Positions 1,013 to 11,474 are shown, counted from the first letter of the stretch. The stretch: 64,000 nt of DNA from a virus (IMGVR_UViG_3300009149_006183:28304-92303); one strand, 5' to 3'. Notes: generated from the sequence alone by a model not told the origin. Numbers and translations are program-made.

Positions 1013-3833
1013 TATTACAGTTAGAAAGAAACTCATCAAAGTTATTTGAGGTCTCATCCTTTTTAATATGTTCATCGAAATTCAGGGCATCGCTATCATT
1101 TATTTTATTCATAATCTCTTCCTGGTTCTGAGTGTAAAAAGTAGTATTAATACTTTTAATTAAACTAATTTTTGGGTCTACTTCTAACATGGTTTTATTA
1201 GACCCGTTAGAAAATACGTTTTTGCCGTATCTAGATTTAATCTGTATAAATTCTATTCTTGTATTATCATTGGCCTGTTGAGGCTTCATCTGCGCATACA
1301 TAGCATCTGAATCAGCACTATATTGATGAGATCCATGAATATCTTCGGAATAAAAAACACCCTTAGAGCCTGACTTCCTGTATCTTTTTAATCCCTCTCT
1401 TCCTAGTTGAGCTCCAGAAACAACACAAAGCCCCTCTTCATGAATAGCCCCTGGTTTTCCCATCGTTCTTAGATATTTTAACATATCTCCAACTTCTAAA
1501 TCGTTTCTATCTCTACGGTGGGTTGTTTCGTCGGGAATTAAATTTGCGATATAGTCAACAACAACAAGATTAGGCTTGAACACGTCGATATTTCGCTCTA
1601 TTTCCCTGCGGATAGTAGACACTGGAATTTGCTCTGGAGCCTCCATAATATAAAAACTACAATGGTGCTCATTCTCGATTGATTTCACTTGGAACTCAAA
1701 ATCGCGAGCTTTATTTAACTGATCTACAGATAAGAATTTTGGATGTTGCAATTGCTCAAATGGTATTTGTGTTTCTCTAGACATAAATTTTTGATACATC
1801 TTCTCCCTTGGCATCTCTAACGGGACATATAATACATTTTTATGAGATAATTTCCATACATTAATAGCGACGTTTAGCATCATCGTAGAATTATGCGTAA
1901 CAATATTATTAGAAACAAAATTATGAGATCCAGCCATACAGACCTCATATGTCTGTTCTTTTCCAATATATTCTATGTTAGATATCTCATCCCAATAAAT
2001 ATCACTATTCGCTATATCTAATAATTCTTGATCATTATTTAGATATTGAGCAATACGAGACAAAACAGCCCTGCTTATAGAGCTATCCTTATTACCGCAA
2101 TGTCCTAAATCTTGTTTCCAATTATCATAAACCCCTCTTCTATAATATCTTCTACATCCAGTTTTAGACTTATTATATTCTTTAAACTTGCTATCTAATA
2201 ACTCCCAAATTTTTGATGGGATAACATCTCTATTAGTATTAGATTTTGAGCTTTTCTCTTTTATCCTATCTATATTGTCTAATAATAATTGCTGTTTTTT
2301 ACCGGTGAAACCAATTTGTTCGTAAAATGAATGTATTTGAGGACAATCCGTTATATTAACTCTCCACGTAAATCCCTTATCGATTTTAACAGAATCTTTT
2401 TTATAATATGATTTATACTTTTTTATAGACGCTATTATTCCAAATTTTAATAAAAGATCCCTAACATCTTTTGACAATTGTTCTGATGAAGTGTAATAAG
2501 AAATAACATATTTTTCTCTATTTCCACTCGCAGATATTTGTAGCCCTCCATCTACAGAATACATCATTCTCAATAAAGAAGATAAGGATTTTTTATTCCA
2601 CGAAAATACATCATTATGGATTCTTTTATCAACAGCCTTACACCCTATGTCAAATTTATTAATAAGATCTTGAGCTCCACGTATTCCATATTGTCCCTTA
2701 ATTCTAATACCATGTTTGTGTTTACAGACCATTTTCATGTTAATTTTATAACAAGAAGATTTCATAATTTTCACAATAGCGGGGTCCAGGTTCGTAGAAG
2801 TAATGTTTGTAAAAGTTCCACCCTCTGAAAGCAATCCGCCTAAAACGACAGGAATTCCTTCTTGCACAGAAATTTTACCGAATGGAGATTTTCTAGAAAT
2901 GGCTAGCGTATCTCCTTTCGTTAATGTAGATGTCGCTCTATATCCCTCCCAGGATAAATGTCTATGATCTTCTGTAGACTTTATTTCATGACCAAGACGC
3001 GTTGTAATTTTATAACAGTCTTTCTTTCCAGTATCTATAACATCTAAAATATTTACAAATTCTATTTTATGATTACAAGGATTAAATTGCATCAACTTAT
3101 CTTTTCGTCCTAACCGATTTCTCCTATATAATTCTTCAAGCGTGACCCTCGTTCCATCTTCTAAATTCTGCAAATTATTATAATGTCCGCACTTATAGCC
3201 TCCGACATCTCCACAAAATAAGATTAGAGAACCAGGAGCAAACCCCGTTCCCAATGTCTCATCTATTTCTTTAATATGGCATAGTATCGTATCATCTCCA
3301 CCCTTTTTATTTCTATTTTCTACTAGTTTATTATAGAATATCGGGGCGTAATCCGAAACAGATTCATAATATATTTTATTTTCACTCGAAGAATCTACTA
3401 CTATATCACCCAGATTAAGAGCTAATCTTTTGGCGGCAATCAGTCCGCCACTTATTTTCGTGTCTTTTTGATAATCTTCAATGCATTTTAAAGTATTTCT
3501 ATCTACAGATGCCTCAAAAATTTTATTCTTCAAGTCTGGATAATCATTGATATCGACATTTAACATATTAGATATATTAAATATATGCTCTTGAGCCTGT
3601 ATATCTAATTTGGCCTTAACATTCTTTTTAATAAAAGAGATAAAGGTCTTTCTGGTTAATAATACCCCGTCGTTAAACGATGCCGTAATCGCTCTGAGGA
3701 TGTAGTGATGTGCCTCATCGAAGTATTTAGTACTTAGCGGGCTAGTCAACCAGTCAGACACTAATTCCTTATTCTGTAAAAGAAGACTGATAAAGTCTTT
3801 CTCTATTTTAAGTTTTTCTTTATAGTCTATCAT
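1005..3833 (-). CDS. dnaB: Replicative DnaB-like helicase, intein-containing
   Basis: Walker A GDVGGYK/S after intein removal, VLYVPLEMP, Walker B VVVDYI, AQLGR, KSRYG arginine finger. Confidence 0.88.
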   Translation of the reverse strand: MIDYKEKLKIEKDFISLLLQNKELVSDWLTSPLSTKYFDEAHHYILRAITASFNDGVLLTRKTFISFIKKNVKAKLDIQAQEHIFNISNMLNVDINDYPDLKNKIFEASVDRNTLKCIEDYQKDTKISGGLIAAKRLALNLGDIVVDSSSENKIYYESVSDYAPIFYNKLVENRNKKGGDDTILCHIKEIDETLGTGFAPGSLILFCGDVGGYKCGHYNNLQNLEDGTRVTLEELYRRNRLGRKDKLMQFNPCNHKIEFVNILDVIDTGKKDCYKITTRLGHEIKSTEDHRHLSWEGYRATSTLTKGDTLAISRKSPFGKISVQEGIPVVLGGLLSEGGTFTNITSTNLDPAIVKIMKSSCYKINMKMVCKHKHGIRIKGQYGIRGAQDLINKFDIGCKAVDKRIHNDVFSWNKKSLSSLLRMMYSVDGGLQISASGNREKYVISYYTSSEQLSKDVRDLLLKFGIIASIKKYKSYYKKDSVKIDKGFTWRVNITDCPQIHSFYEQIGFTGKKQQLLLDNIDRIKEKSSKSNTNRDVIPSKIWELLDSKFKEYNKSKTGCRRYYRRGVYDNWKQDLGHCGNKDSSISRAVLSRIAQYLNNDQELLDIANSDIYWDEISNIEYIGKEQTYEVCMAGSHNFVSNNIVTHNSTMMLNVAINVWKLSHKNVLYVPLEMPREKMYQKFMSRETQIPFEQLQHPKFLSVDQLNKARDFEFQVKSIENEHHCSFYIMEAPEQIPVSTIRREIERNIDVFKPNLVVVDYIANLIPDETTHRRDRNDLEVGDMLKYLRTMGKPGAIHEEGLCVVSGAQLGREGLKRYRKSGSKGVFYSEDIHGSHQYSADSDAMYAQMKPQQANDNTRIEFIQIKSRYGKNVFSNGSNKTMLEVDPKISLIKSINTTFYTQNQEEIMNKINDSDALNFDEHIKKDETSNNFDEFLSNCNNG
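1890..3191 (-). mobile_element. Class 1 intein with in-frame LAGLIDADG endonuclease, in the DnaB P-loop
   Basis: Starts CGHYNN; block B STEDHRHL; LAGLIDADG-like VLGGLLSEGG and LLRMMYSVDGG; ends FVSNNIVTHN followed by S. 434 aa. Confidence 0.9.
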
Positions 3834-4630
3834 TTATTACTCGCCAAAGAAATTATAAAAGTTTTTGGATCTCTAATTATTTTAGTTATAGCGACTCCCA
3901 AAGCATCTTCTGAATTAAATTTAGTTATATCAAATCTAATGACTAAAATAGTGGGCAACCCGTCATTTAGTCTTTCTAAGAAAAAGGCGTCTAGAGCCTG
4001 TTTTCTCCAGCGCTGGTCAGTGTACGTTATGTCATCTACCACTAGCCAATCAGAAGAACATAATTCGGAAACGCTAACATCATCTTTTTTAAGAACTTTA
4101 TTTTCTAATATGGGATATTCTATCCAGTCATATGTTTGGCAAAAACTATCATCACCAGAAAGTCTACTTTTTATAGCTTCTTTCATTATTAATGATGCAA
4201 TAAGAGTTTTGCCTTTTGGGCTTTTACCTGACTTTTGATTCAACGATGAGTCATCGAAAATAACTACATTACTGCCAGTTAGACGCCTTTTAGATATACA
4301 AGAATGACTATCTAGAACCGTAGATGGTGTCTCTTGTATTTTTAAAATGTCAATACCTGTCCAACAGTAATCAACGACTTTTTTCTTAGCCTCAAGAGCC
4401 ACACCAGCATCAATAAGCAGATTATTATCGAGAGATAGACCGTCAAAATCATGAATAGTAAATTTATAGTATGGGTGGGGTATTACGCAACGCAGATATG
4501 CCTGAGTCTCTGCCGCGATCTTACAAGTACACTTGTCTCCCTTTGGACACTTTGAGATATCGTCAACATTACAATATTTTTTAGACATATATCTCTCTAG
4601 CTCTTGTTTAATATTAATTATATCTTTCAT
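3830..4630 (-). CDS. DnaC/IstB-like helicase loader ATPase
   Basis: N-terminal Cys cluster, KGKTLIAS Walker A-like, WLVVDDI Walker B, RLNDGLPTI; adjacent to dnaB. Confidence 0.65.
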   Translation of the reverse strand: MKDIINIKQELERYMSKKYCNVDDISKCPKGDKCTCKIAAETQAYLRCVIPHPYYKFTIHDFDGLSLDNNLLIDAGVALEAKKKVVDYCWTGIDILKIQETPSTVLDSHSCISKRRLTGSNVVIFDDSSLNQKSGKSPKGKTLIASLIMKEAIKSRLSGDDSFCQTYDWIEYPILENKVLKKDDVSVSELCSSDWLVVDDITYTDQRWRKQALDAFFLERLNDGLPTILVIRFDITKFNSEDALGVAITKIIRDPKTFIISLASNK

Positions 4631-4631
4631 T

Positions 4632-6299
4632 TTATATCTCTAATTGTTTAACATCATCATAGATAGTGGAACCAGCACACTGAGAAGGAGGTCTATTAGC
4701 CATAGTGCAACAATCTTTTGCCCACGACCGCATCTCGTCAATAACGTCACTTCGCATGACAGATAGGGGTTTAAAAGATTTTAATGCTGATAGAATATCG
4801 TTATCAACTATAGTCCTTTTAGATTCTGAAAAACCAACGAATAGAGCAGAAACGATAGCTTTTTCAATTTCTGCCCCACTATAGTTTTCGCTATTTAATG
4901 CGAGACAATCGATATCAAAATCGCCATCATTTCTTTTATACCTTTTTAACAGGGCTTTAAAGATAGCTTTTCTTTCATATAGGTGGGGAAGGTCAACAAA
5001 AAATATCTCATCAAATCTTCTCATAAATTCTGGAGGTAATTGCGTATAATCGTTAGCCGTGGCGAATACGAATACGGGTTTTTCTTTTTCTTCCATCCAA
5101 GTTAAAAACGTAGAGATAACTCTATTTGTAGTTCCCCCATCTGTTTGCCCGCTTGATTTTCCACCAGACAAACCTTTTTCTATTTCGTCCAGCCAAAGAA
5201 TACACGGGGATACAACCTCAGCCAGTTTAATCGAATCTCGCGATCTCTCTTCGCTTTCTCCCTGTAATGATCCGAATAGTCTACCGAAGTCTAATCTCAA
5301 AAGCGGCATCTGGTATAAGCTAGCGACAGCTTTAGCACATAAGCTTTTTCCTGTCCCACTGCAACCGATAGTTAATACTCCCTTTGGACATGGAATACCA
5401 TACTCTGCGGCTTCGGGATGGAATGCTAATAGCCGAAGTTTTAGCCAATCAACAAGATTATCAAGCCCACCGATATCATCCATAGAGACTTTAGGTTCTA
5501 AGAATTCTAATGTGCCTTTTTTCCTAATAATTTGTCGCTTCTCTTTAAGTATTGATGGAATAACAAACTTTTTATGTAGAACTAGAGATTTTGCATAAGC
5601 CATCTGAGCCTCTACTAGAGTTAAACCACTAACAGATTTAATAAGGGTGTTTTCATTTTTTGTTGTTTCTTTTTTTAGGTTAGGTAATTTACCTTGTTTC
5701 TCGACAGCTTTAACCATACTCCATAGCGCTTTTTTAATTTCTAAATCGTTTGGGTATGGAAAATCTACAACAGAAATACTATTTTCTAATGCTGGAGACG
5801 TTCTAAAAGATGGGCCAGTCATAATTATATGTGTCATAGAATTTATAGATGCGAATGTCTTTAATCTTCGTTCTATATCTGGAGTAACAACATCTGGGGC
5901 TATCCACCTATGAAAATCTAAAAGTATATAGATATTTCCAGATATTCCATTAGTCTTCATAAACTTCGCGTTTTGAATATCCTTCTCAGCCTCTCCTATT
6001 ATTTTAGTTAATATCTCTTCTGGGATAGTCAAGTCTGTTGTAGTCGCGGCGTCTTTTTGTCCAGAAAGCAAATCGATAGCTCCCAAATAGCAATCCCAAA
6101 CGTGCGTTCTGTATCCTCTAACCGCAGACAAATATTTAAAATAATCTTTAAGTCTTTTTTCCTCACTACATGTCAAGAAAATAAGAGGTGAGCGGCTTTT
6201 AAGTAGAGCCAGTATATCATTGTGAAAATCTTGAGTCGCCATCATCTCTAGATTCTGTTCGTAATTAGACACGCCTATCTTTTCTTCGTCTTGGGCCAT
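4632..6299 (-). CDS. AAA+ ATPase, Ycf46-like (degenerate N-terminal plus active C-terminal AAA domain)
   Basis: DIGGLDNL, GCSGTGKS, LWLDEIEKG, ATAN, RRFDEIFFVDLP, YSGAEIE. SD AGGAG upstream of the ATG at 6299. Confidence 0.9.
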   Translation of the reverse strand: MAQDEEKIGVSNYEQNLEMMATQDFHNDILALLKSRSPLIFLTCSEEKRLKDYFKYLSAVRGYRTHVWDCYLGAIDLLSGQKDAATTTDLTIPEEILTKIIGEAEKDIQNAKFMKTNGISGNIYILLDFHRWIAPDVVTPDIERRLKTFASINSMTHIIMTGPSFRTSPALENSISVVDFPYPNDLEIKKALWSMVKAVEKQGKLPNLKKETTKNENTLIKSVSGLTLVEAQMAYAKSLVLHKKFVIPSILKEKRQIIRKKGTLEFLEPKVSMDDIGGLDNLVDWLKLRLLAFHPEAAEYGIPCPKGVLTIGCSGTGKSLCAKAVASLYQMPLLRLDFGRLFGSLQGESEERSRDSIKLAEVVSPCILWLDEIEKGLSGGKSSGQTDGGTTNRVISTFLTWMEEKEKPVFVFATANDYTQLPPEFMRRFDEIFFVDLPHLYERKAIFKALLKRYKRNDGDFDIDCLALNSENYSGAEIEKAIVSALFVGFSESKRTIVDNDILSALKSFKPLSVMRSDVIDEMRSWAKDCCTMANRPPSQCAGSTIYDDVKQLEI

Positions 6300-7619: not shown

Positions 7620-8714
7620 TTAAGCCACTATAAGATATTCAACACTATCAGATTTTTTCCTATACTTATACTGGTGATTTACTGCATAAACTTCTCTTAT
7701 TTTCCTAACTTCAGAAATCACTTCTTTAATTTTGTCTATATTCGACCAGCTTGAATCATTGTAACTTATTGCCCAGACAGGGATATAAATTAACTCCGAA
7801 ATTAGCTGCCTAAAATTTTCTTCGTAATTACTTATATCAACAAATTTTTTGCAGTTTCCACTAAAAATATCTGTACTTTGTCGGATATACGACTCGCAGA
7901 AACCATACATCGCAGCGTAATCACTTTGTGCGGCCCCGTACGGAGGATCAATATAGGCGATATCTACGGCTGGCTTGTCGTTCTTTAATAATTCTATACA
8001 GTCTTTGTTATAAACCTCATGCCCACCAAGATCATTTTCTATATTTAAATTCTTCCACTCTATTTTATTAAAGTTAATTTGCTGCCCACGATTTCTATGA
8101 TGCTTAATGCGATGGTCTACCTTAGCCAAGATTTGCCCGTTATTTAATCTGCCGCCGATAAAGCACCTATCCATTATAAATAATTGTATATTAGCGAAAA
8201 CTAGAGCTCTTTTAGTCTTATCTAAAGCGGAATCGCTAGGGAATACCTTATAGATATTATAATATATCCTATCTAAATTATTTGCTTCTTCTTCTGTAAA
8301 CCTATCGATAAAATTATCTAAAACGAAATGATTATGGTTATCGAATCCTTCGTCATTTTTTATAAGAAACTCAGATTCGTCTGTAGATATTTTCACTATA
8401 TTGTTTTTGACAAAAGCTTCCGCATAAACAGAAGAAGATAAAAGAATATCATTAGATACAACCCTCTTCCCCAACAATTTCATCATCATAGAAACACAGG
8501 CACTACCACAAAATAAATCTAGAATTGAATCATATTCTATATTGTTCTTTTTTAAAACATTTATAATTTCTACAATCAAATCTCTTTTATTACCGATATA
8601 TGGGTTTTTAAAATTTTTAATTATATTTCTAAAATATAATATATTCGACTCTTTTGTATTGACACAAGATTGACTAACAAAATCTATTTCTTCTGGGCAA
8701 CTGAATTTTACCAT
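7620..8714 (-). CDS. DNA adenine methyltransferase (D12/Dam-like, alpha class)
   Basis: PYIGNK, LDLFCGSACVS (motif I), AYIDPPY (motif IV). Confidence 0.9.
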   Translation of the reverse strand: MVKFSCPEEIDFVSQSCVNTKESNILYFRNIIKNFKNPYIGNKRDLIVEIINVLKKNNIEYDSILDLFCGSACVSMMMKLLGKRVVSNDILLSSSVYAEAFVKNNIVKISTDESEFLIKNDEGFDNHNHFVLDNFIDRFTEEEANNLDRIYYNIYKVFPSDSALDKTKRALVFANIQLFIMDRCFIGGRLNNGQILAKVDHRIKHHRNRGQQINFNKIEWKNLNIENDLGGHEVYNKDCIELLKNDKPAVDIAYIDPPYGAAQSDYAAMYGFCESYIRQSTDIFSGNCKKFVDISNYEENFRQLISELIYIPVWAISYNDSSWSNIDKIKEVISEVRKIREVYAVNHQYKYRKKSDSVEYLIVA

Positions 8715-8717
8715 TAT

Positions 8718-11474
8718 TTATACCTTAATATCTTTAATATTAAATGCTGGTTCTGTCTGATATATCTTTTTTCTTTTTTTTCCGTGAGCGGAAAGATATT
8801 TACAACTATCTTGTATATCAACCACAGTGGCCGAGTCTTTTACCCTGCCAGATGGAGAGGTATAAGGTCTTAGAACTCTTCCCACTCTTTGCAAAGCACG
8901 AGTCTGACTTTTTCCCCCACCGGCAAGGATTAGAGTGTCAAGAGGTTTACAGTCAATTCCTTCATCGAAAATCGAGGTTGCGACAGTCACTCCTGCCCTA
9001 CCTTCTCTCATTTTTTGCAGGTGATCTTTTCTTTGTTTGCTAGAATGTTCGCCATGTAGAAAAACACTACCATCTATCAGTTTTTCAAGAATCTTTCCAT
9101 GACTAACATGCTGACATAAAATTAAAACGAGTCTTCCCTGCTCCTCAAAATTTTTAGCTATTTTAGCTATATATTGATTTCTTTGTAAATTTTCGACAAT
9201 GCCCGTTTTATAATATTCATGATATGAGAATAAATCTTCCTTTGGCATTCCGAGATCAAACGGCAACAGGTAAATATCTGGTCGAATCAAATATTTATTA
9301 GGATGTTCTATTAAATATGATGCTGTAATATTGCAAATTTGCCTACCAAAACAAGCATCAATCAAAATATCATCTCCCTTGTCTCTCCAGGGAGTAGCAC
9401 TTAGCCCCCATCGATAACGGGCGGAAATAGAGTTATCTGCTATTATTTGAGCCGTTTCTGATGCCCAATGCTGACAATTGTGAACCAGCATCCCATTTGC
9501 GAAAAAACAATGAGTTTTTTCTACCGAAATATCATAAACAGTATCTTCATTTATATTCTCAATGCTTTCTATCTCCATATATTTTATACTGCATAAATGA
9601 TGGGATATATTCTTCGACAAGGGGGCGTATTCTTTGAGTGGCTTTTTTTGACAAATATAAGATATAATACCTTCTTGCTTTTTGAATAGTGGTTTTTCCA
9701 TATTTATTAGAGAACCATTCAGAACACAATTTAACCTCTTCAAAAGAAAATCCTTCAGTATGAAGTCTAATTCCTGGGCCATGTGCCGACCCGTCATCTC
9801 CGATCCATAAAGCGAGTCCAATATGTCCGATATTATTAAGCCATTCTGTTGTAATTCTTTTCTTACCGATAGCATATGCGATCTGGCATGCTCTAAAAAG
9901 ATCTGGGAGGCAAGGAGTTCTAAAACAAATAGACATCTTTCCGAACCCTTTATTTTCTGCTTCATAATATTTTGGAAATAAATTTTTAAAAATATTTGCT
10001 TTGTACTTTGCCCATTCCTTTTGACATAATCCATGATTCCAACAAAATCTTGCGTTTTTACTCCTAACAGAAGGAAAAGTAATAAAAGAATCTCCCAAAA
10101 GAGTACCACAAATTGCTTGAAACTCAAACTGTGATAATTTAAAGTCATATAAAATATTTTTCTTGTCATGACCATAAATGTATTTTCTATAAGAAGATCC
10201 CCCTTTGTTCTTAATAAAAAGATCCAAGGAGTTATATCGTAAATTAACTTTTTTTCCACATCCGCATTTACATAAAGGCGCCGAGGCAACCATTTGTTCA
10301 AATTTTTCATTCCATTCTGATCTACTACGTTTTTTGATTTGATGGCCCAATACATATTTTGGATATCTACTAGGGCTTTTTGATCGCACATCGATTTTTG
10401 TTCCACATCCGCATTGACAAAGGACAAAATCTTGTCTTTTGTTTCTAAATTCCCTGCTTGGACCCATCCTCTTTTTGTCTTGATTAAATGATTTTTTGTG
10501 CATTTTATTGACTTCCCAGAACAAAGCCTTATCTTAATTAATTTTTTCTTACCTTTATTTACAAAATGAGTTATTTTGTTCCATACAGCACTAGCTCCAT
10601 TAAAACTAAGTATTTCCTCTCCAATAAATTTATTTAATTCTCTCATTTTTACATGACCAAAATTTTTAACAAAAACAAGAGCGTCTCCTGTTATGCACTC
10701 GTCAGCCATAAAACCTTTTGCCGACTGTATTAACAATAGAATATCGTTTTTTTTCTGCTCTATTACTTTTAATTCTTCTTTTGATACCTTTTCCTTATCT
10801 TCGTCATCGAATCTAATATATTTACCGCCCAATGATCGAACTGCCGTTTGGACAGTCATAACGTTTATATCTTTAATATCAAACTTTCCATTTCCAATTA
10901 TTCCAACCCCCAACGGCGAACCATTATATCTCAAAAATTTACCAAACTCTTGCTGTGTCTGCTGGAGTAAATCTATAGATGGAACATAAAAAACAAATGG
11001 AGATACACCGATCTCTTGGATTATGCCAGCAGCTATAGCAGTCTTGCCAGACCCTGTTGGGCACTTTATTAGCCCTCTTTGCATCTCAACAGACTTTTTT
11101 ATTACTTCAGTTTGGTAATCTCTAAACTCAAAATCTGCCGACATCTCTAATTCTATATTTTTACTTACGGCATCTCTTATATCAAATATCTCTAACTCGA
11201 TACCGTTAGATACTAAAAAGTCTCTGGCTTTATTAAAAAGTCCTGTGGGGAAATGAGTGCCTTTCTTTTTTATAGAACACTTACACGACCTTTCATTGAA
11301 GTGCAAAGTACTTTCTATCCCATCCCAATTTTTATTGCCATATTTTATTTTAAAAATGGCAGTTTCCGGACGATAACCAAGAAGCTTTCTTAGACCTTGA
11401 TATACGTCAGAGGGGAGCCGGTCAGCGATATAAGTTACAGTATTAGAAACGTATAGTTTTACTTTTTCACTCAT
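8718..11474 (-). CDS. SF2 DNA helicase (UvsW/XPB-like), intein-containing
   Basis: FRDYQ, CPTGSGKT, Walker B DE/CQH after intein removal, GLSATPWR, IFDEGID, QRVGRVLR. Confidence 0.9.
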   Translation of the reverse strand: MSEKVKLYVSNTVTYIADRLPSDVYQGLRKLLGYRPETAIFKIKYGNKNWDGIESTLHFNERSCKCSIKKKGTHFPTGLFNKARDFLVSNGIELEIFDIRDAVSKNIELEMSADFEFRDYQTEVIKKSVEMQRGLIKCPTGSGKTAIAAGIIQEIGVSPFVFYVPSIDLLQQTQQEFGKFLRYNGSPLGVGIIGNGKFDIKDINVMTVQTAVRSLGGKYIRFDDEDKEKVSKEELKVIEQKKNDILLLIQSAKGFMADECITGDALVFVKNFGHVKMRELNKFIGEEILSFNGASAVWNKITHFVNKGKKKLIKIRLCSGKSIKCTKNHLIKTKRGWVQAGNLETKDKILSFVNADVEQKSMCDQKALVDIQNMYWAIKSKNVVDQNGMKNLNKWLPRRLYVNADVEKKLIYDITPWIFLLRTKGDLLIENTFMVMTRKIFYMTLNYHSLSFKQFVVLFWEILLLLFLLLGVKTQDFVGIMDYVKRNGQSTKQIFLKIYFQNIMKQKIKGSERCLFVLELLASQIFLEHARSHMLSVRKELQQNGLIISDILDSLYGSEMTGRHMAQELDFILKDFLLKRLNCVLNGSLINMEKPLFKKQEGIISYICQKKPLKEYAPLSKNISHHLCSIKYMEIESIENINEDTVYDISVEKTHCFFANGMLVHNCQHWASETAQIIADNSISARYRWGLSATPWRDKGDDILIDACFGRQICNITASYLIEHPNKYLIRPDIYLLPFDLGMPKEDLFSYHEYYKTGIVENLQRNQYIAKIAKNFEEQGRLVLILCQHVSHGKILEKLIDGSVFLHGEHSSKQRKDHLQKMREGRAGVTVATSIFDEGIDCKPLDTLILAGGGKSQTRALQRVGRVLRPYTSPSGRVKDSATVVDIQDSCKYLSAHGKKRKKIYQTEPAFNIKDIKV
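9477..10697 (-). mobile_element. Intein in the helicase Walker B motif, lacking an in-frame endonuclease
   Basis: Starts CITGDALV; block B KCTKNHLI; block F/G VYDISVEKTHCFFANGMLVHN followed by C. 407 aa; the central ~280 aa have no recognisable motifs. Confidence 0.9.
9559..10524 (-). CDS. LAGLIDADG homing endonuclease nested out of frame inside the intein
   Basis: AICGTLLGDS and LALWIGDDGS motifs, IRLHTEGFS..EV, C-terminal MQYK, two N-terminal CxCGCG...GH repeats. ATG at 10503 is a plausible start. Confidence 0.85.
   Translation of the reverse strand: MFWEVNKMHKKSFNQDKKRMGPSREFRNKRQDFVLCQCGCGTKIDVRSKSPSRYPKYVLGHQIKKRSRSEWNEKFEQMVASAPLCKCGCGKKVNLRYNSLDLFIKNKGGSSYRKYIYGHDKKNILYDFKLSQFEFQAICGTLLGDSFITFPSVRSKNARFCWNHGLCQKEWAKYKANIFKNLFPKYYEAENKGFGKMSICFRTPCLPDLFRACQIAYAIGKKRITTEWLNNIGHIGLALWIGDDGSAHGPGIRLHTEGFSFEEVKLCSEWFSNKYGKTTIQKARRYYILYLSKKATQRIRPLVEEYIPSFMQYKIYGDRKH

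What the first reader, a model, noticed from the sequence alone, without database searches (positions are those of the whole stretch)
9477..10697. Intein carrying its homing endonuclease in a different, fully overlapping reading frame
Seen: the helicase intein has intact splicing blocks A, B, F and G in the helicase frame. Its ~280-aa middle has no motifs and reads like a shadow translation (e.g. FVVLFWEILLLLFLLLGV). The same DNA in the -1 frame encodes a complete two-motif LAGLIDADG endonuclease (AICGTLLGDS, LALWIGDDGS) with two CxCGCG...GH repeats. Both frames stay stop-free for ~320 codons in AT-rich DNA. Known: intein endonucleases are normally in frame, and free-standing ones can sit between split-intein halves. 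Inference: this is a third architecture, in which the endonuclease is an independent overprinted gene and the intein splices its junk translation out of an essential helicase, decoupling endonuclease expression from the host protein. Translation could start at ATG 10503 (GGGAAG ~10 nt upstream) or by -1 slippage at A AAA AAT (10491-10497), which leads into the endonuclease frame.
Basis: partly seen in the sequence, partly recalled or inferred. Interest (0 to 1): 0.92.

Follow-up and report, generated by a model that had tools for sequence, protein, structure and literature searches.

The report
Helicase intein with overlapping out-of-frame endonuclease
A jumbo-phage helicase gene carries a self-splicing intein whose DNA-cutting homing enzyme is written in a second, overlapping reading frame of the same DNA; this is real and under selection, but it belongs to a rare layout first described in 1998 and found repeatedly by this scan.

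Summary
The minus-strand ORF 8718-11474 is an SF2 helicase interrupted at motif II (DE|CQH) by a 407-aa intein (9477-10697). A 314-codon LAGLIDADG gene (10503-9559) lies in the +2/-1 frame over the intein's middle.

- **Selection on both frames.** In the window and two diverged relatives the host frame has 0 stops where 12-15 are expected (P about 1e-8 to 1e-10 each). The third frame has 37-41, as expected.
- **Which frame codes for protein.** dN/dS is 0.17-0.26 in the endonuclease frame and 1.0-1.3 in the helicase frame.
- **The endonuclease looks intact.** It folds confidently (pLDDT 89.5) and matches I-SceI and I-WcaI.
- **The layout recurs.** It appears in at least 11 independent loci, with GC from 30 to 66%. 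These include Xanthomonas phage FoX3 and a cyanobacterial dnaX intein that is homologous in both parts.

The "third architecture" is therefore not new. It is the non-canonical DnaX-type intein of Gorbalenya 1998, reanalysed in 2025-26 Gogarten-lab preprints. Start at ATG 10503 is supported, because Met-His is invariant in close relatives. The proposed slippage site is not conserved.

Split versions with 10-13 host-frame stops occur in cultured Pectobacterium and E. coli phages. This scan has found the same class before on other DNA.

Verdict: a new member of a known, rare kind.

The parts
8718..11474 (-). SF2 (DExH) helicase gene, one continuous 918-codon ORF that includes the intein
   Evidence: ResIII E 5e-16, Helicase_C E 7e-12, Intein_splicing E 8e-18. 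Frame 0 has no internal stop.
10698..11474 (-). N-extein (259 aa), ending in the motif II residues D-E
   Evidence: junction GFMADE|CITGDALV.
9477..10697 (-). Intein, 407 aa in the helicase frame (Cys1 ... His-Asn, followed by +1 Cys)
   Evidence: It is homologous to the inteins of L004/L005 (41-44% over the whole length) and to a cyanobacterial dnaX intein over the N-splicing domain (37% over 100 aa, E 2e-17).
10422..10697 (-). N-terminal splicing domain (blocks A and B; about 92 aa)
   Evidence: 66-68% identical to L004/L005. The BLASTP alignment to the dnaX intein stops at residue 97, where the shadow region begins.
9559..10503 (-). Homing endonuclease gene in the +2/-1 frame (314 codons plus stop). 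It is I-SceI-like with two LAGLIDADG motifs, and its N-terminal extension holds two CxCGCG...GH repeats.
   Evidence: Pfam LAGLIDADG_2 E 3e-24. AF2 pLDDT 89.5, pTM 0.74. Foldseek hits I-WcaI 6x1j (E 9e-13) and I-SceI 1r7m (E 5e-12, TM 0.73). dN/dS 0.17-0.26.
10501..10503 (-). Likely endonuclease start codon ATG, formed by the last base of a Lys codon plus TG of the block-B Cys codon (AAA TGC ACA)
   Evidence: Same position in L004, L005, Pectobacterium phage Ymer and Escherichia phage AN_ECEAS. M1 and H2 are invariant in alignment A2. Many database relatives begin with MH.
10512..10517 (-). Shine-Dalgarno-like GGGAAG, 8 nt upstream of the ATG, encoded by the conserved Ser-Gly-Lys codons of the intein
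   Evidence: the equivalent is GGAGAGG in Ymer and AN_ECEAS. About half of this phage's long ORFs have GGAG/AGGA/GGGA-type sites upstream. Its conservation cannot be separated from conservation of the Gly-Lys/Glu residues.
10342..10419 (-). CxCGCG...GH repeat 1 of the endonuclease (residues 29-54)
   Evidence: C29, C31, G32, C33, G53 and H54 are invariant in A2.
10168..10272 (-). CxCGCG...GH repeat 2 of the endonuclease (residues 78-112)
   Evidence: C78, C80, G81, C82, G83, G111 and H112 are invariant or nearly so.
10087..10116 (-). LAGLIDADG motif 1 (A-I-C-G-T-L-L-G-D-S; catalytic Asp138)
   Evidence: G137 and D138 are invariant in 42 sequences.
9787..9816 (-). LAGLIDADG motif 2 (L-A-L-W-I-G-D-D-G-S; Asp236/237)
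   Evidence: D236, D237 and G238 are invariant in 42 sequences.
9585..10421 (-). Shadow zone: helicase-frame codons with no amino-acid constraint, kept only free of stops (about 280 aa linker between the splicing halves)
   Evidence: Host-frame dN/dS 1.0-1.3. Identity 33-36% (51% for L004-L005), equal to the third frame. 0 stops against 12-15 expected.
9477..9584 (-). C-terminal splicing domain (blocks F and G, ending VHN)
   Evidence: 61-69% identical to L004/L005/L024. The endonuclease stop codon (9559-9561) lies inside it.
8721..9476 (-). C-extein (252 aa), beginning C-Q-H-W and including motifs III-VI
   Evidence: 54-58% identical to the helicases of L011-L015, which lack this intein.
10491..10497 (-).
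   Evidence: Present in WIN and L004. It reads G AAA AAT in L005 and is absent in Ymer, AN_ECEAS and FoX3.

Best explanation
This is a bicistronic, overprinted intein of the DnaX type, sitting in the Walker-B/motif II site (DE|CQH) of a jumbo-phage SF2 helicase.

**How it most likely works.**
1. The helicase mRNA is translated straight through all 918 codons.
2. The N-terminal (about 92 aa) and C-terminal (about 36 aa) splicing halves of the intein fold together. The roughly 280-aa stretch between them is an unconstrained linker whose only requirement is to contain no stop codon.
3. The intein then splices itself out and restores DECQH.
4. The same DNA, read one base back, is a separate gene for an I-SceI-like two-motif LAGLIDADG endonuclease with two Cys-rich N-terminal repeats.
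5. That gene is most likely translated by internal initiation at ATG 10503. This codon is built from the block-B Lys-Cys codons, with an SD-like GGGAAG 8 nt upstream.
6. The endonuclease presumably cuts intein-less DE(C/V/I)QH alleles in co-infecting relatives and so drives homing of the whole unit.

**Shown here:** dual coding; selection for openness in the host frame; purifying selection and an intact fold in the endonuclease frame; homology to the dnaX element; recurrence in many phages; existence of intein-less alleles.

**Inferred:** cis-splicing, the start codon, cleavage activity and its target.
For: - **Anatomy.**
- **Stop avoidance.** 0 host-frame stops against 12.3-15.1 expected in the window, L004 and L005 (P 3e-8 to 1e-10). 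The third frame has 37-41 observed against 38-40 expected. The same holds in 11 loci with GC 0.30-0.66, P 2e-3 to 1e-9 each, always with the endonuclease in host frame +2 and always at hDE|C...HN|C(Q/H).
- **Selection.** Substitutions per endonuclease codon position run 3 > 1 > 2. dN/dS is 0.17-0.26 in the endonuclease frame, 1.0-1.28 in the host frame and 1.4-1.5 in the third frame.
- **Endonuclease integrity.** Pfam E 3e-24. The catalytic Asp residues are invariant in 42 sequences. AF2 pLDDT is 89.5, with only residues 1-21 disordered; those residues overlap block B. Best structural matches are I-WcaI and I-SceI.
- **Start codon.** The ATG is at the same block-B position in 5 of 6 loci, and M1/H2 are invariant.
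- **Homology to the known DnaX element.** In the Nodosilinea dnaX locus L016 the endonuclease is 33% identical over residues 1-312 (E 1e-50). It has the same +2 offset and the insertion is after Walker-B DE. The N-splicing domain is 37% identical (E 2e-17).
- **Mobility.** Intein-less alleles exist in L011-L015, including one that reads DECQH. A decayed, truncated endonuclease with the host frame still open occurs in L024.
- **Literature.** The same frame-dependent dN/dS pattern and the same I-WcaI match are reported for the dnaX +2 ORF.
Against:
- Splicing of a precursor with a 280-aa unconstrained and partly very hydrophobic linker is inferred only. The inference rests on selection for an open frame and on the presumed need for the helicase.
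- The SD-like site is weak (GGGAAG). Its conservation is confounded with conserved Gly-Lys/Glu codons.
- FoX3, L023, L028 and the dnaX copy lack the ATG at this position, so they must start elsewhere. One candidate is a second conserved Met over the Gly-Trp codons.
- The extein tree is too poorly resolved to prove horizontal transfer.
Confidence: 0.82

Rival explanations
1. Artefact. Two compensating indel errors in the assembly hide an ordinary intein with an in-frame endonuclease.
For: The contig is a metagenome-derived viral contig. Reads could not be inspected.
Against: If the endonuclease were really in frame, the helicase frame would have no reason to stay open for about 320 codons (P about 3e-8). 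The same two-frame layout, with the same offset, appears in L004/L006, L005, L021-L024, L028, L032, the dnaX locus L016 and cultured phage FoX3.
Confidence: 0.01
2. The endonuclease is not made by independent initiation. Instead a programmed -1 ribosomal frameshift at A AAA AAT (10491-10497) produces an N-extein / N-intein / endonuclease fusion.
For: The heptamer has X XXY YYZ form and leads into the endonuclease frame. It is present in the window and in L004. Database proteins P0039, P0040 and P0066 are natural in-frame fusions of N-extein, N-intein and endonuclease that end at or before the endonuclease's C-terminus (P0040 is truncated), so such a fusion could be tolerated.
Against: The heptamer is simply the Thr-Lys-Asn codons of block B in AT-rich DNA. 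It is degraded in L005 and absent in Ymer, AN_ECEAS and FoX3, whereas the ATG is conserved. I did not look for a downstream stimulatory structure. Residues 1-21 of the endonuclease are unstructured, as expected for a free N-terminus.
Confidence: 0.07
3. The element is functionally split. The helicase is made as two polypeptides joined by trans-splicing, as in the Pectobacterium and E. coli phage relatives, and the open helicase frame is incidental.
For: Relatives Ymer (L001) and AN_ECEAS (L007) have the same frame offset and the same ATG but carry 13 and 10 stops in the helicase frame. Their C-half has its own ATG. Engineered mini-versions of the DnaX splicing domain are reported to work in trans (PMC3443213).
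Against: In the window and 10 other loci the helicase frame has 0 stops where 5-15 are expected. Only a need for read-through explains that. Where the constraint is truly absent (Ymer, AN_ECEAS), stops accumulate to about the expected number.
Confidence: 0.03
4. The endonuclease gene is intact in sequence but no longer homes. It would be a domesticated or recently inactivated passenger, so the element is now inherited vertically only.
For: L024, from the same helicase family, shows the endonuclease can decay: a 191-codon remnant inside a 255-aa intein. The extein tree does not clearly show transfer. The homing-cycle model predicts such stages.
Against: dN/dS of 0.17-0.26 holds across 50-70% identical copies, and the catalytic residues are invariant. 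The splicing domains (66-68% identity) are more alike than the exteins (51-53%), and intein-less alleles are interleaved among relatives.
Confidence: 0.1

Closest known systems
Cyanobacterial DnaX intein with an out-of-frame (+2 ORF) LAGLIDADG homing endonuclease (Gorbalenya 1998, 'Non-canonical inteins'; Phillips, DeSimone and Gogarten, bioRxiv 10.64898/2026.09.14.751524)
   Same: - Same strand and same +2 frame offset.
- The endonuclease is homologous: 33% identity, E 1e-50, with two CxCGCG repeats.
- The N-splicing domain is homologous: 37% identity, E 2e-17.
- Insertion is directly after a Walker-B Asp-Glu with Cys at +1.
- The host frame is open but unconstrained, with the same dN/dS contrast.
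- Same best structural match, I-WcaI.

   Different: - The host protein is a phage SF2 DExH helicase, not the clamp-loader subunit.
- The genome is an AT-rich jumbo phage (GC 0.34).
- The start codon here lies over the block-B Cys codon. In the Nodosilinea copy that ATG is followed by a stop, so a downstream Met must be used.
Non-canonical actinobacteriophage inteins (Gosselin, Arsenault and Gogarten, bioRxiv 10.1101/2025.01.02.630785)
   Same: These are phage inteins whose endonuclease is encoded outside the intein reading frame. They sit in essential genes, and there is evidence that the unit still moves.
   Different: Those cases are antisense LAGLIDADG, antisense VSR-like, or frame-3 endonuclease VII-like. 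They occur in terminase, polymerase, capsid and thymidylate synthase genes. None of the four host protein types listed in the sections I read is a helicase, so no same-strand -1-frame LAGLIDADG in a helicase appears there.
Fractured genes: split inteins with a free-standing endonuclease gene between the halves (Dassa et al. 2009, PMC2677866)
   Same: A separately translated endonuclease gene lies between the N- and C-splicing halves and overlaps the downstream half. The window's relatives in Pectobacterium phages (Ymer, Amona, Koroua, Abuela, Sabo) and Escherichia phages AN_ECEAS and ES have exactly this layout.
   Different: In the window the host frame is continuous, with 0 stops, so the intein is cis-splicing. 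Dassa's endonucleases are GIY-YIG or Vsr-like, not LAGLIDADG, and their reported overlaps are 6-69 bp at the 3' end only.
ShiLan-type hidden HNH endonuclease insertions in phage methylases (Arsenault et al. 2025, PMC11855218)
   Same: An out-of-frame endonuclease lies inside an insertion that stays stop-free in the host frame.
   Different: No splicing domain is present there, so the insert remains in the protein. Here intact intein blocks A, B, F and G flank the overlap.

Membership tests
Class 1 intein (HINT splicing domain) | Block A with a nucleophilic Cys/Ser at position 1 | tested here: met
   The intein starts C-I-T-G-D directly after D-E.
Class 1 intein (HINT splicing domain) | Block B T-x-x-H | tested here: met
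   C-T-K-N-H-L-I-K-T, invariant in L004/L005.
Class 1 intein (HINT splicing domain) | Block G ending His-Asn, followed by a Cys/Ser/Thr +1 extein residue | tested here: met
   G-M-L-V-H-N|C-Q-H-W. Pfam Intein_splicing E 8e-18, above the curated cut-off.
Class 1 intein (HINT splicing domain) | HINT fold of the joined N and C halves | tested here: inconclusive
   The AF2 model of the intein frame has mean pLDDT 36.5, built from a 3-sequence alignment. Beta strands are predicted at both ends but confidence is low.
Class 1 intein (HINT splicing domain) | Protein splicing activity | not testable with these tools
   Inferred only, from selection for an open frame in a replication helicase.
LAGLIDADG_2 / I-SceI-like monomeric homing endonuclease | Two LAGLIDADG motifs, each ending in a catalytic acidic residue | tested here: met
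   G-T-L-L-G-D(138) and W-I-G-D(236)-D(237)-G. These residues are invariant in 42 relatives.
LAGLIDADG_2 / I-SceI-like monomeric homing endonuclease | Profile match above the curated threshold | tested here: met
   PF03161: 86.2 bits against a cut-off of 25, E 3e-24.
LAGLIDADG_2 / I-SceI-like monomeric homing endonuclease | Pseudo-dimeric alpha-beta-beta-alpha-beta-beta-alpha fold | tested here: met
   AF2 pLDDT 89.5. Foldseek hits 6x1j (E 9e-13) and 1r7m (E 5e-12, TM 0.73, rmsd 2.9).
LAGLIDADG_2 / I-SceI-like monomeric homing endonuclease | Site-specific cleavage of the intein-less allele | not testable with these tools
   Candidate targets exist: the DECQH allele in L014 and the DEVQH/DEIQH alleles in L011-L013 and L015.
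Non-canonical (DnaX-type) intein with an overlapping alternative-frame endonuclease | Endonuclease ORF on the same strand in another frame, between the splicing blocks, with the host frame uninterrupted | tested here: met
   The +2 frame is open for 324 codons and the host frame has 0 stops.
Non-canonical (DnaX-type) intein with an overlapping alternative-frame endonuclease | Purifying selection in the endonuclease frame and none at the amino-acid level in the host frame over the overlap | tested here: met
   dN/dS 0.17-0.26 against 1.0-1.28. Identity 50-71% against 33-51%, the latter equal to the third frame.
Non-canonical (DnaX-type) intein with an overlapping alternative-frame endonuclease | Sequence homology of both intein and endonuclease to the dnaX element | tested here: met
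   L016 (Nodosilinea dnaX): endonuclease E 1e-50, N-splicing domain E 2e-17.
Fractured gene / naturally split intein (Dassa 2009) | The host gene is broken into two separately translated ORFs (stops in the host frame between the intein halves) | tested here: not met
   0 stops in the window. Relatives Ymer and AN_ECEAS have 13 and 10.
Programmed -1 ribosomal frameshift | A slippery heptamer conserved among relatives that share the overlap | tested here: not met
   A AAA AAT occurs only in the window and L004. It is altered or absent in L005, Ymer, AN_ECEAS and FoX3.

The most novel reading that the evidence does not exclude
The helicase and DnaX overprinted inteins may form one old, widespread lineage. 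In this reading a mini-intein and a -1-frame LAGLIDADG gene travel as a fixed two-frame unit. The endonuclease borrows its start signals from the intein's own block-B codons. The unit hops between Walker-B 'DE|C' sites of unrelated P-loop NTPases.

The lineage would also be the direct source of other forms seen here:
- naturally split inteins (the fractured helicases of cultured Pectobacterium and E. coli phages);
- in-frame fusions of N-intein and endonuclease.

The overprinted state would then be a stable hub from which cis, split and in-frame inteins interconvert, and not a rare accident.
Probability: 0.35. Interest if true: 0.6.

Novelty: new member of a known kind. Interest (0 to 1): 0.4.

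Why it matters
**Annotation.** Gene callers will miss the endonuclease and will label the 918-aa ORF a plain helicase. FoX3 gp40 is annotated that way, and the split forms are annotated as 'hypothetical protein' plus 'DNA helicase'.

**Biology.** The case adds an AT-rich jumbo-phage helicase to a layout that the literature I read still describes as having few documented examples. Together with the relatives collected here, it shows three things:
- The layout is stable across GC 30-66%.
- It is shared with the dnaX intein.
- It is linked to naturally split helicases in cultured phages.

That gives intein evolution (the splicing-first, endonuclease-invasion model) a tractable set of cis, split and decayed states at a single insertion site.

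**Practical use.** A splicing domain that tolerates a roughly 280-aa unconstrained insert, and that has natural split relatives, may be useful for protein engineering.

It is not a new principle, and this scan has already reported the same class on other genomes.

Tried and rejected
The DNA context of the database homologues P0001-P0005 could not be examined.
No read mapping or expression check was possible, and read laying was not used.
- **blastn against the phage collection** found nothing for the whole gene.
- **The search for related loci with the 42-sequence alignment A1** failed for lack of a conserved stretch. I repeated it with the 10-sequence alignment A2.
- **AF2 of the intein in the helicase frame** gave pLDDT 36.5 overall from only 3 sequences. 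The low confidence of the middle is consistent with a shadow translation. However, the model is too poor to confirm the HINT fold, and the comparison with the endonuclease model (42 sequences) is not like-for-like.
- **Extein tree of 9 helicases**. The window's position has support of 0.49-0.67, so I do not claim demonstrated horizontal transfer. My first version of this tree picked the wrong ORFs for L011 and L013 and was discarded.
- **An easy chance origin in GC-rich DNA.** I considered this, but even at GC 0.59-0.66 the probability of an open host frame is only 2e-3 to 2e-7. The origin of the arrangement remains unexplained.
- **Pfam gave no family** for the host protein of the second group of overprinted inteins, L025.


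Full report
**What is there.** The window comes from a 92-kb IMG/VR viral contig estimated at 16% complete, so it is a fragment of a much larger (jumbo-size) phage genome. On the minus strand, ORF 8718-11474 encodes a 918-aa SF2 helicase (ResIII E 5e-16, Helicase_C E 7e-12). Pfam Intein_splicing covers residues 271-666 (E 8e-18). The intein (window 9477-10697, 407 aa) starts with C-I-T-G-D directly after the motif II residues D-E. It has block B C-T-K-N-H and ends G-M-L-V-H-N before C-Q-H-W. Read in the +2 (= -1) frame, the same DNA is open for 324 codons. From ATG 10503 to the stop at 9559-9561 it encodes a 314-aa protein that matches Pfam LAGLIDADG_2 at E 3e-24. Across the whole gene the helicase frame has no stop. 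The +2 frame has 64 stops, all outside codons 313-636. The +1 frame has 93.

**Is it more than chance or error?** I recoded the endonuclease protein with synonymous codons drawn from this phage's own usage. That predicts 12.3 stops in the helicase frame against none observed (P about 3e-8). The third frame has 37 observed against 37.7 expected. Three IMG/VR contigs carry the same helicase, the same 408-aa intein and the same out-of-frame gene: L004 and L006, which differ by 1 nt, and L005. Their endonucleases are 50% identical to the window's and about 71% identical to each other (L004-L005). Both frames are open in each, with P about 1e-10 each. Reads could not be inspected. An indel artefact would nevertheless leave the helicase frame full of stops, and it cannot recur in independent assemblies.

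**Which frame is the protein?** Between the three diverged copies, substitutions are most frequent at endonuclease codon position 3 and least frequent at position 2. Endonuclease position 3 corresponds to helicase-frame position 2. Amino-acid identity is 50-71% in the endonuclease frame. In the helicase frame it is 33-51%, the same as in the non-coding third frame. Nei-Gojobori dN/dS over 252 codons of pure overlap is 0.17-0.26 in the endonuclease frame, 1.0-1.28 in the helicase frame and 1.4-1.5 in the third frame. The middle of the intein is therefore a shadow translation constrained only to avoid stops.

**The endonuclease.** A whole-library HMMER search found 2830 relatives at E <= 1e-3 and 48 at E <= 1e-30. 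In a 42-sequence alignment, the acidic residues of both LAGLIDADG motifs (D138, D236, D237) are invariant, and the Cys/Gly residues of the second CxCGCG repeat are invariant or nearly so. The first repeat is invariant in the 10 closest sequences. AlphaFold2 gives mean pLDDT 89.5 and pTM 0.74. Only residues 1-21 are disordered, which is the stretch that overlaps intein block B. The best PDB matches are I-WcaI (6x1j, E 9e-13) and I-SceI (1r7m, E 5e-12, TM 0.73). A model of the intein in the helicase frame was poor throughout (pLDDT 36.5). It rested on three sequences and is not informative.

**Translation start.** The ATG at 10503 is made from the last base of a Lys codon plus TG of the block-B Cys codon (AAA TGC ACA). 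The same construction occurs in L004, L005, Pectobacterium phage Ymer and Escherichia phage AN_ECEAS. The Ser-Gly-Lys/Glu codons 7-8 nt upstream supply GGGAAG or GGAGAGG. Met1-His2 is invariant in the ten closest relatives, and many database homologues begin with MH. About half of this phage's long ORFs have comparable purine-rich sites upstream. FoX3, L023, L028 and the dnaX copy lack this ATG and must start elsewhere. A second conserved Met over the Gly-Trp codons is one candidate. The A AAA AAT heptamer is just the Thr-Lys-Asn codons of block B in AT-rich DNA and is not conserved. I rate frameshifting as unlikely.

**How common is the layout, and what is it related to?**
- *Xanthomonas phage FoX3.* gp40 is annotated simply as a putative DNA helicase. 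It has the same architecture at WDE|C...VHN|CHH, with 0 stops in the host frame and 15 in the third frame.
- *Further viral contigs.* A scan with the endonuclease alignment found L021, L022, L023, L028, L032 and L033, and L024 with a truncated endonuclease. In the ones with complete boundaries the intein sits at hDE|C...HN|C(Q/H), and in all of them the endonuclease is in host frame +2 and the host frame has no stop. GC ranges from 0.30 to 0.66 and per-locus P from 2e-3 to 1e-9.
- *A cyanobacterial dnaX gene (Nodosilinea MAG, L016).* It carries a homologous endonuclease (33% identity over residues 1-312, E 1e-50) in the same +2 offset. That gene lies inside an intein inserted after the Walker-B D-E. 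The N-splicing domain is 37% identical to the window's (E 2e-17), and the alignment ends exactly where the shadow zone begins.

**Prior description.** This is the element that the two preprints credit to Gorbalenya (1998) as a non-canonical intein. Phillips et al. re-analysed it (bioRxiv 10.64898/2026.09.14.751524) and report the same frame-dependent dN/dS pattern and the same I-WcaI match. Gosselin et al. (bioRxiv 10.1101/2025.01.02.630785) describe other out-of-frame and antisense endonucleases in actinophage inteins. The window holds a new member in a new host protein.

**Related states at the same site.**
- *Split forms.* In Pectobacterium phages (Ymer and four others) and Escherichia phages AN_ECEAS and ES, the endonuclease has the same frame offset and the same ATG. 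The helicase frame, however, carries 13 and 10 stops, about the unconstrained expectation. The C-half has its own ATG, and each half retains its part of the splicing domain. These are naturally split inteins of the 'fractured gene' type (Dassa 2009), but with a LAGLIDADG gene overlapping both halves. Dassa's cases used GIY-YIG or Vsr-like genes.
- *In-frame N-fusions.* Database proteins P0039 (helicase), P0040 and P0066 (DnaX) fuse N-extein, N-intein and endonuclease in one frame; P0039 and P0066 stop at the endonuclease's own stop, and P0040 is truncated.
- *Canonical in-frame inteins.* P0086 and L010 are ordinary in-frame inteins carrying related endonucleases.
- *Intein-less and decayed alleles.* Helicases 51-56% identical to the window's exteins lack the intein: DEVQH or DEIQH in L011-L013 and L015, and DECQH in L014. 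L024 shows endonuclease decay with the host frame still open.
- *Mobility.* The splicing domains (66-68% identity) are more alike than the exteins (51-53%). The extein tree is too weakly supported to prove transfer.

**Mechanism.** The helicase is translated through the whole element. The two splicing halves fold around an unconstrained linker of about 280 aa and excise it, restoring DECQH. Engineered mini-versions of the DnaX splicing domain are robust and even work in trans (PMC3443213). My recollection that the full-length Synechocystis DnaX intein splices in E. coli (Liu and Hu 1997) rests on memory only. The endonuclease is made separately from the internal ATG and presumably cleaves intein-less alleles. 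Cis-splicing, the start codon and cleavage are all inferred, not shown.

**Verdict.** The element is a new member of a known, rare kind. This scan has already reported both the cis-overprinted and the split helicase versions on other genomes. That agrees with what I found independently here.

Noticed in passing
L001 (Pectobacterium phage Ymer OP748252, locus 1827-4937); L007 (Escherichia phage AN_ECEAS PP944860, locus 1806-4940): In these cultured phages the helicase is truly split at DE|C. The N-half carries the N-intein and the C-half carries the C-intein, both in the same frame. A LAGLIDADG gene in the -1 frame overlaps both halves (166 and 71 nt in Ymer). The pieces are annotated as 'hypothetical protein', 'homing endonuclease' and 'DNA helicase'. 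In AN_ECEAS the endonuclease is not annotated at all.
   Followed up: partly
L002 (Xanthomonas phage FoX3 MT161383, locus 1908-4274 and 2339-3097): gp40 is annotated only as 'putative DNA helicase', but it contains the same intein with a hidden -1-frame LAGLIDADG ORF. The RefSeq copy NC_055837 labels the feature under the match 'head morphogenesis', which looks like a misannotation.
   Followed up: partly
L025/L026/L027, L029, L031 (IMG/VR contigs; e.g. L025 1744-5076 and 2495-3718): A second group of overprinted inteins sits in a different, unidentified phage protein of about 590 aa; in L025 the junctions read AAAK|CLAKG ... LTHN|C. The LAGLIDADG_2 gene lacks the CxCGCG repeats, has a long Lys/Arg-rich tail, and lies in the +1 frame, not +2. 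Both frames are open and the third frame has 12-19 stops within the endonuclease match (P about 1e-20 for L025).
   Followed up: partly
L005 1994-6067: The orthologous helicase in this relative carries a second, canonical intein with an in-frame LAGLIDADG domain, inserted in motif VI (GSGK|C...NHN|SQTRAL). L015 has yet another intein near the FDEGID motif. The helicase is therefore an intein hotspot.
   Followed up: no
P0066, P0039, P0040 (database proteins): These natural ORFs fuse N-extein (DnaX or helicase), N-intein and endonuclease in a single frame; P0066 and P0039 end at the endonuclease's stop, and P0040 is truncated. This suggests a third state, in which the endonuclease is fused in-frame to the N-half of a split intein.
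   Followed up: no
L024 (IMG/VR 3300033121_002354), helicase ORF 1581-3875: This is the same helicase family and insertion site as the window. The intein is only 255 aa, with a 191-codon remnant of the endonuclease frame. It is an intermediate on the way to a mini-intein, and the host frame is still stop-free.
   Followed up: partly
L008 (Bacteroides phage PhiCrAssBcn18 OQ221553, locus 1483-3716): A crAss-like phage DnaB-type replicative helicase is annotated in two pieces, with a related LAGLIDADG gene between them that has helix-turn-helix repeats in place of CxCGCG. I saw no intein blocks, so this may be an intron or a plain gene fracture.
   Followed up: no
window 7620-8714 (-): A DNA methyltransferase-like gene follows the helicase with a 3-nt gap. 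The same neighbour follows the intein-less helicases in L012 and L014, so the helicase-methylase pair is syntenic across these jumbo phages.
   Followed up: no
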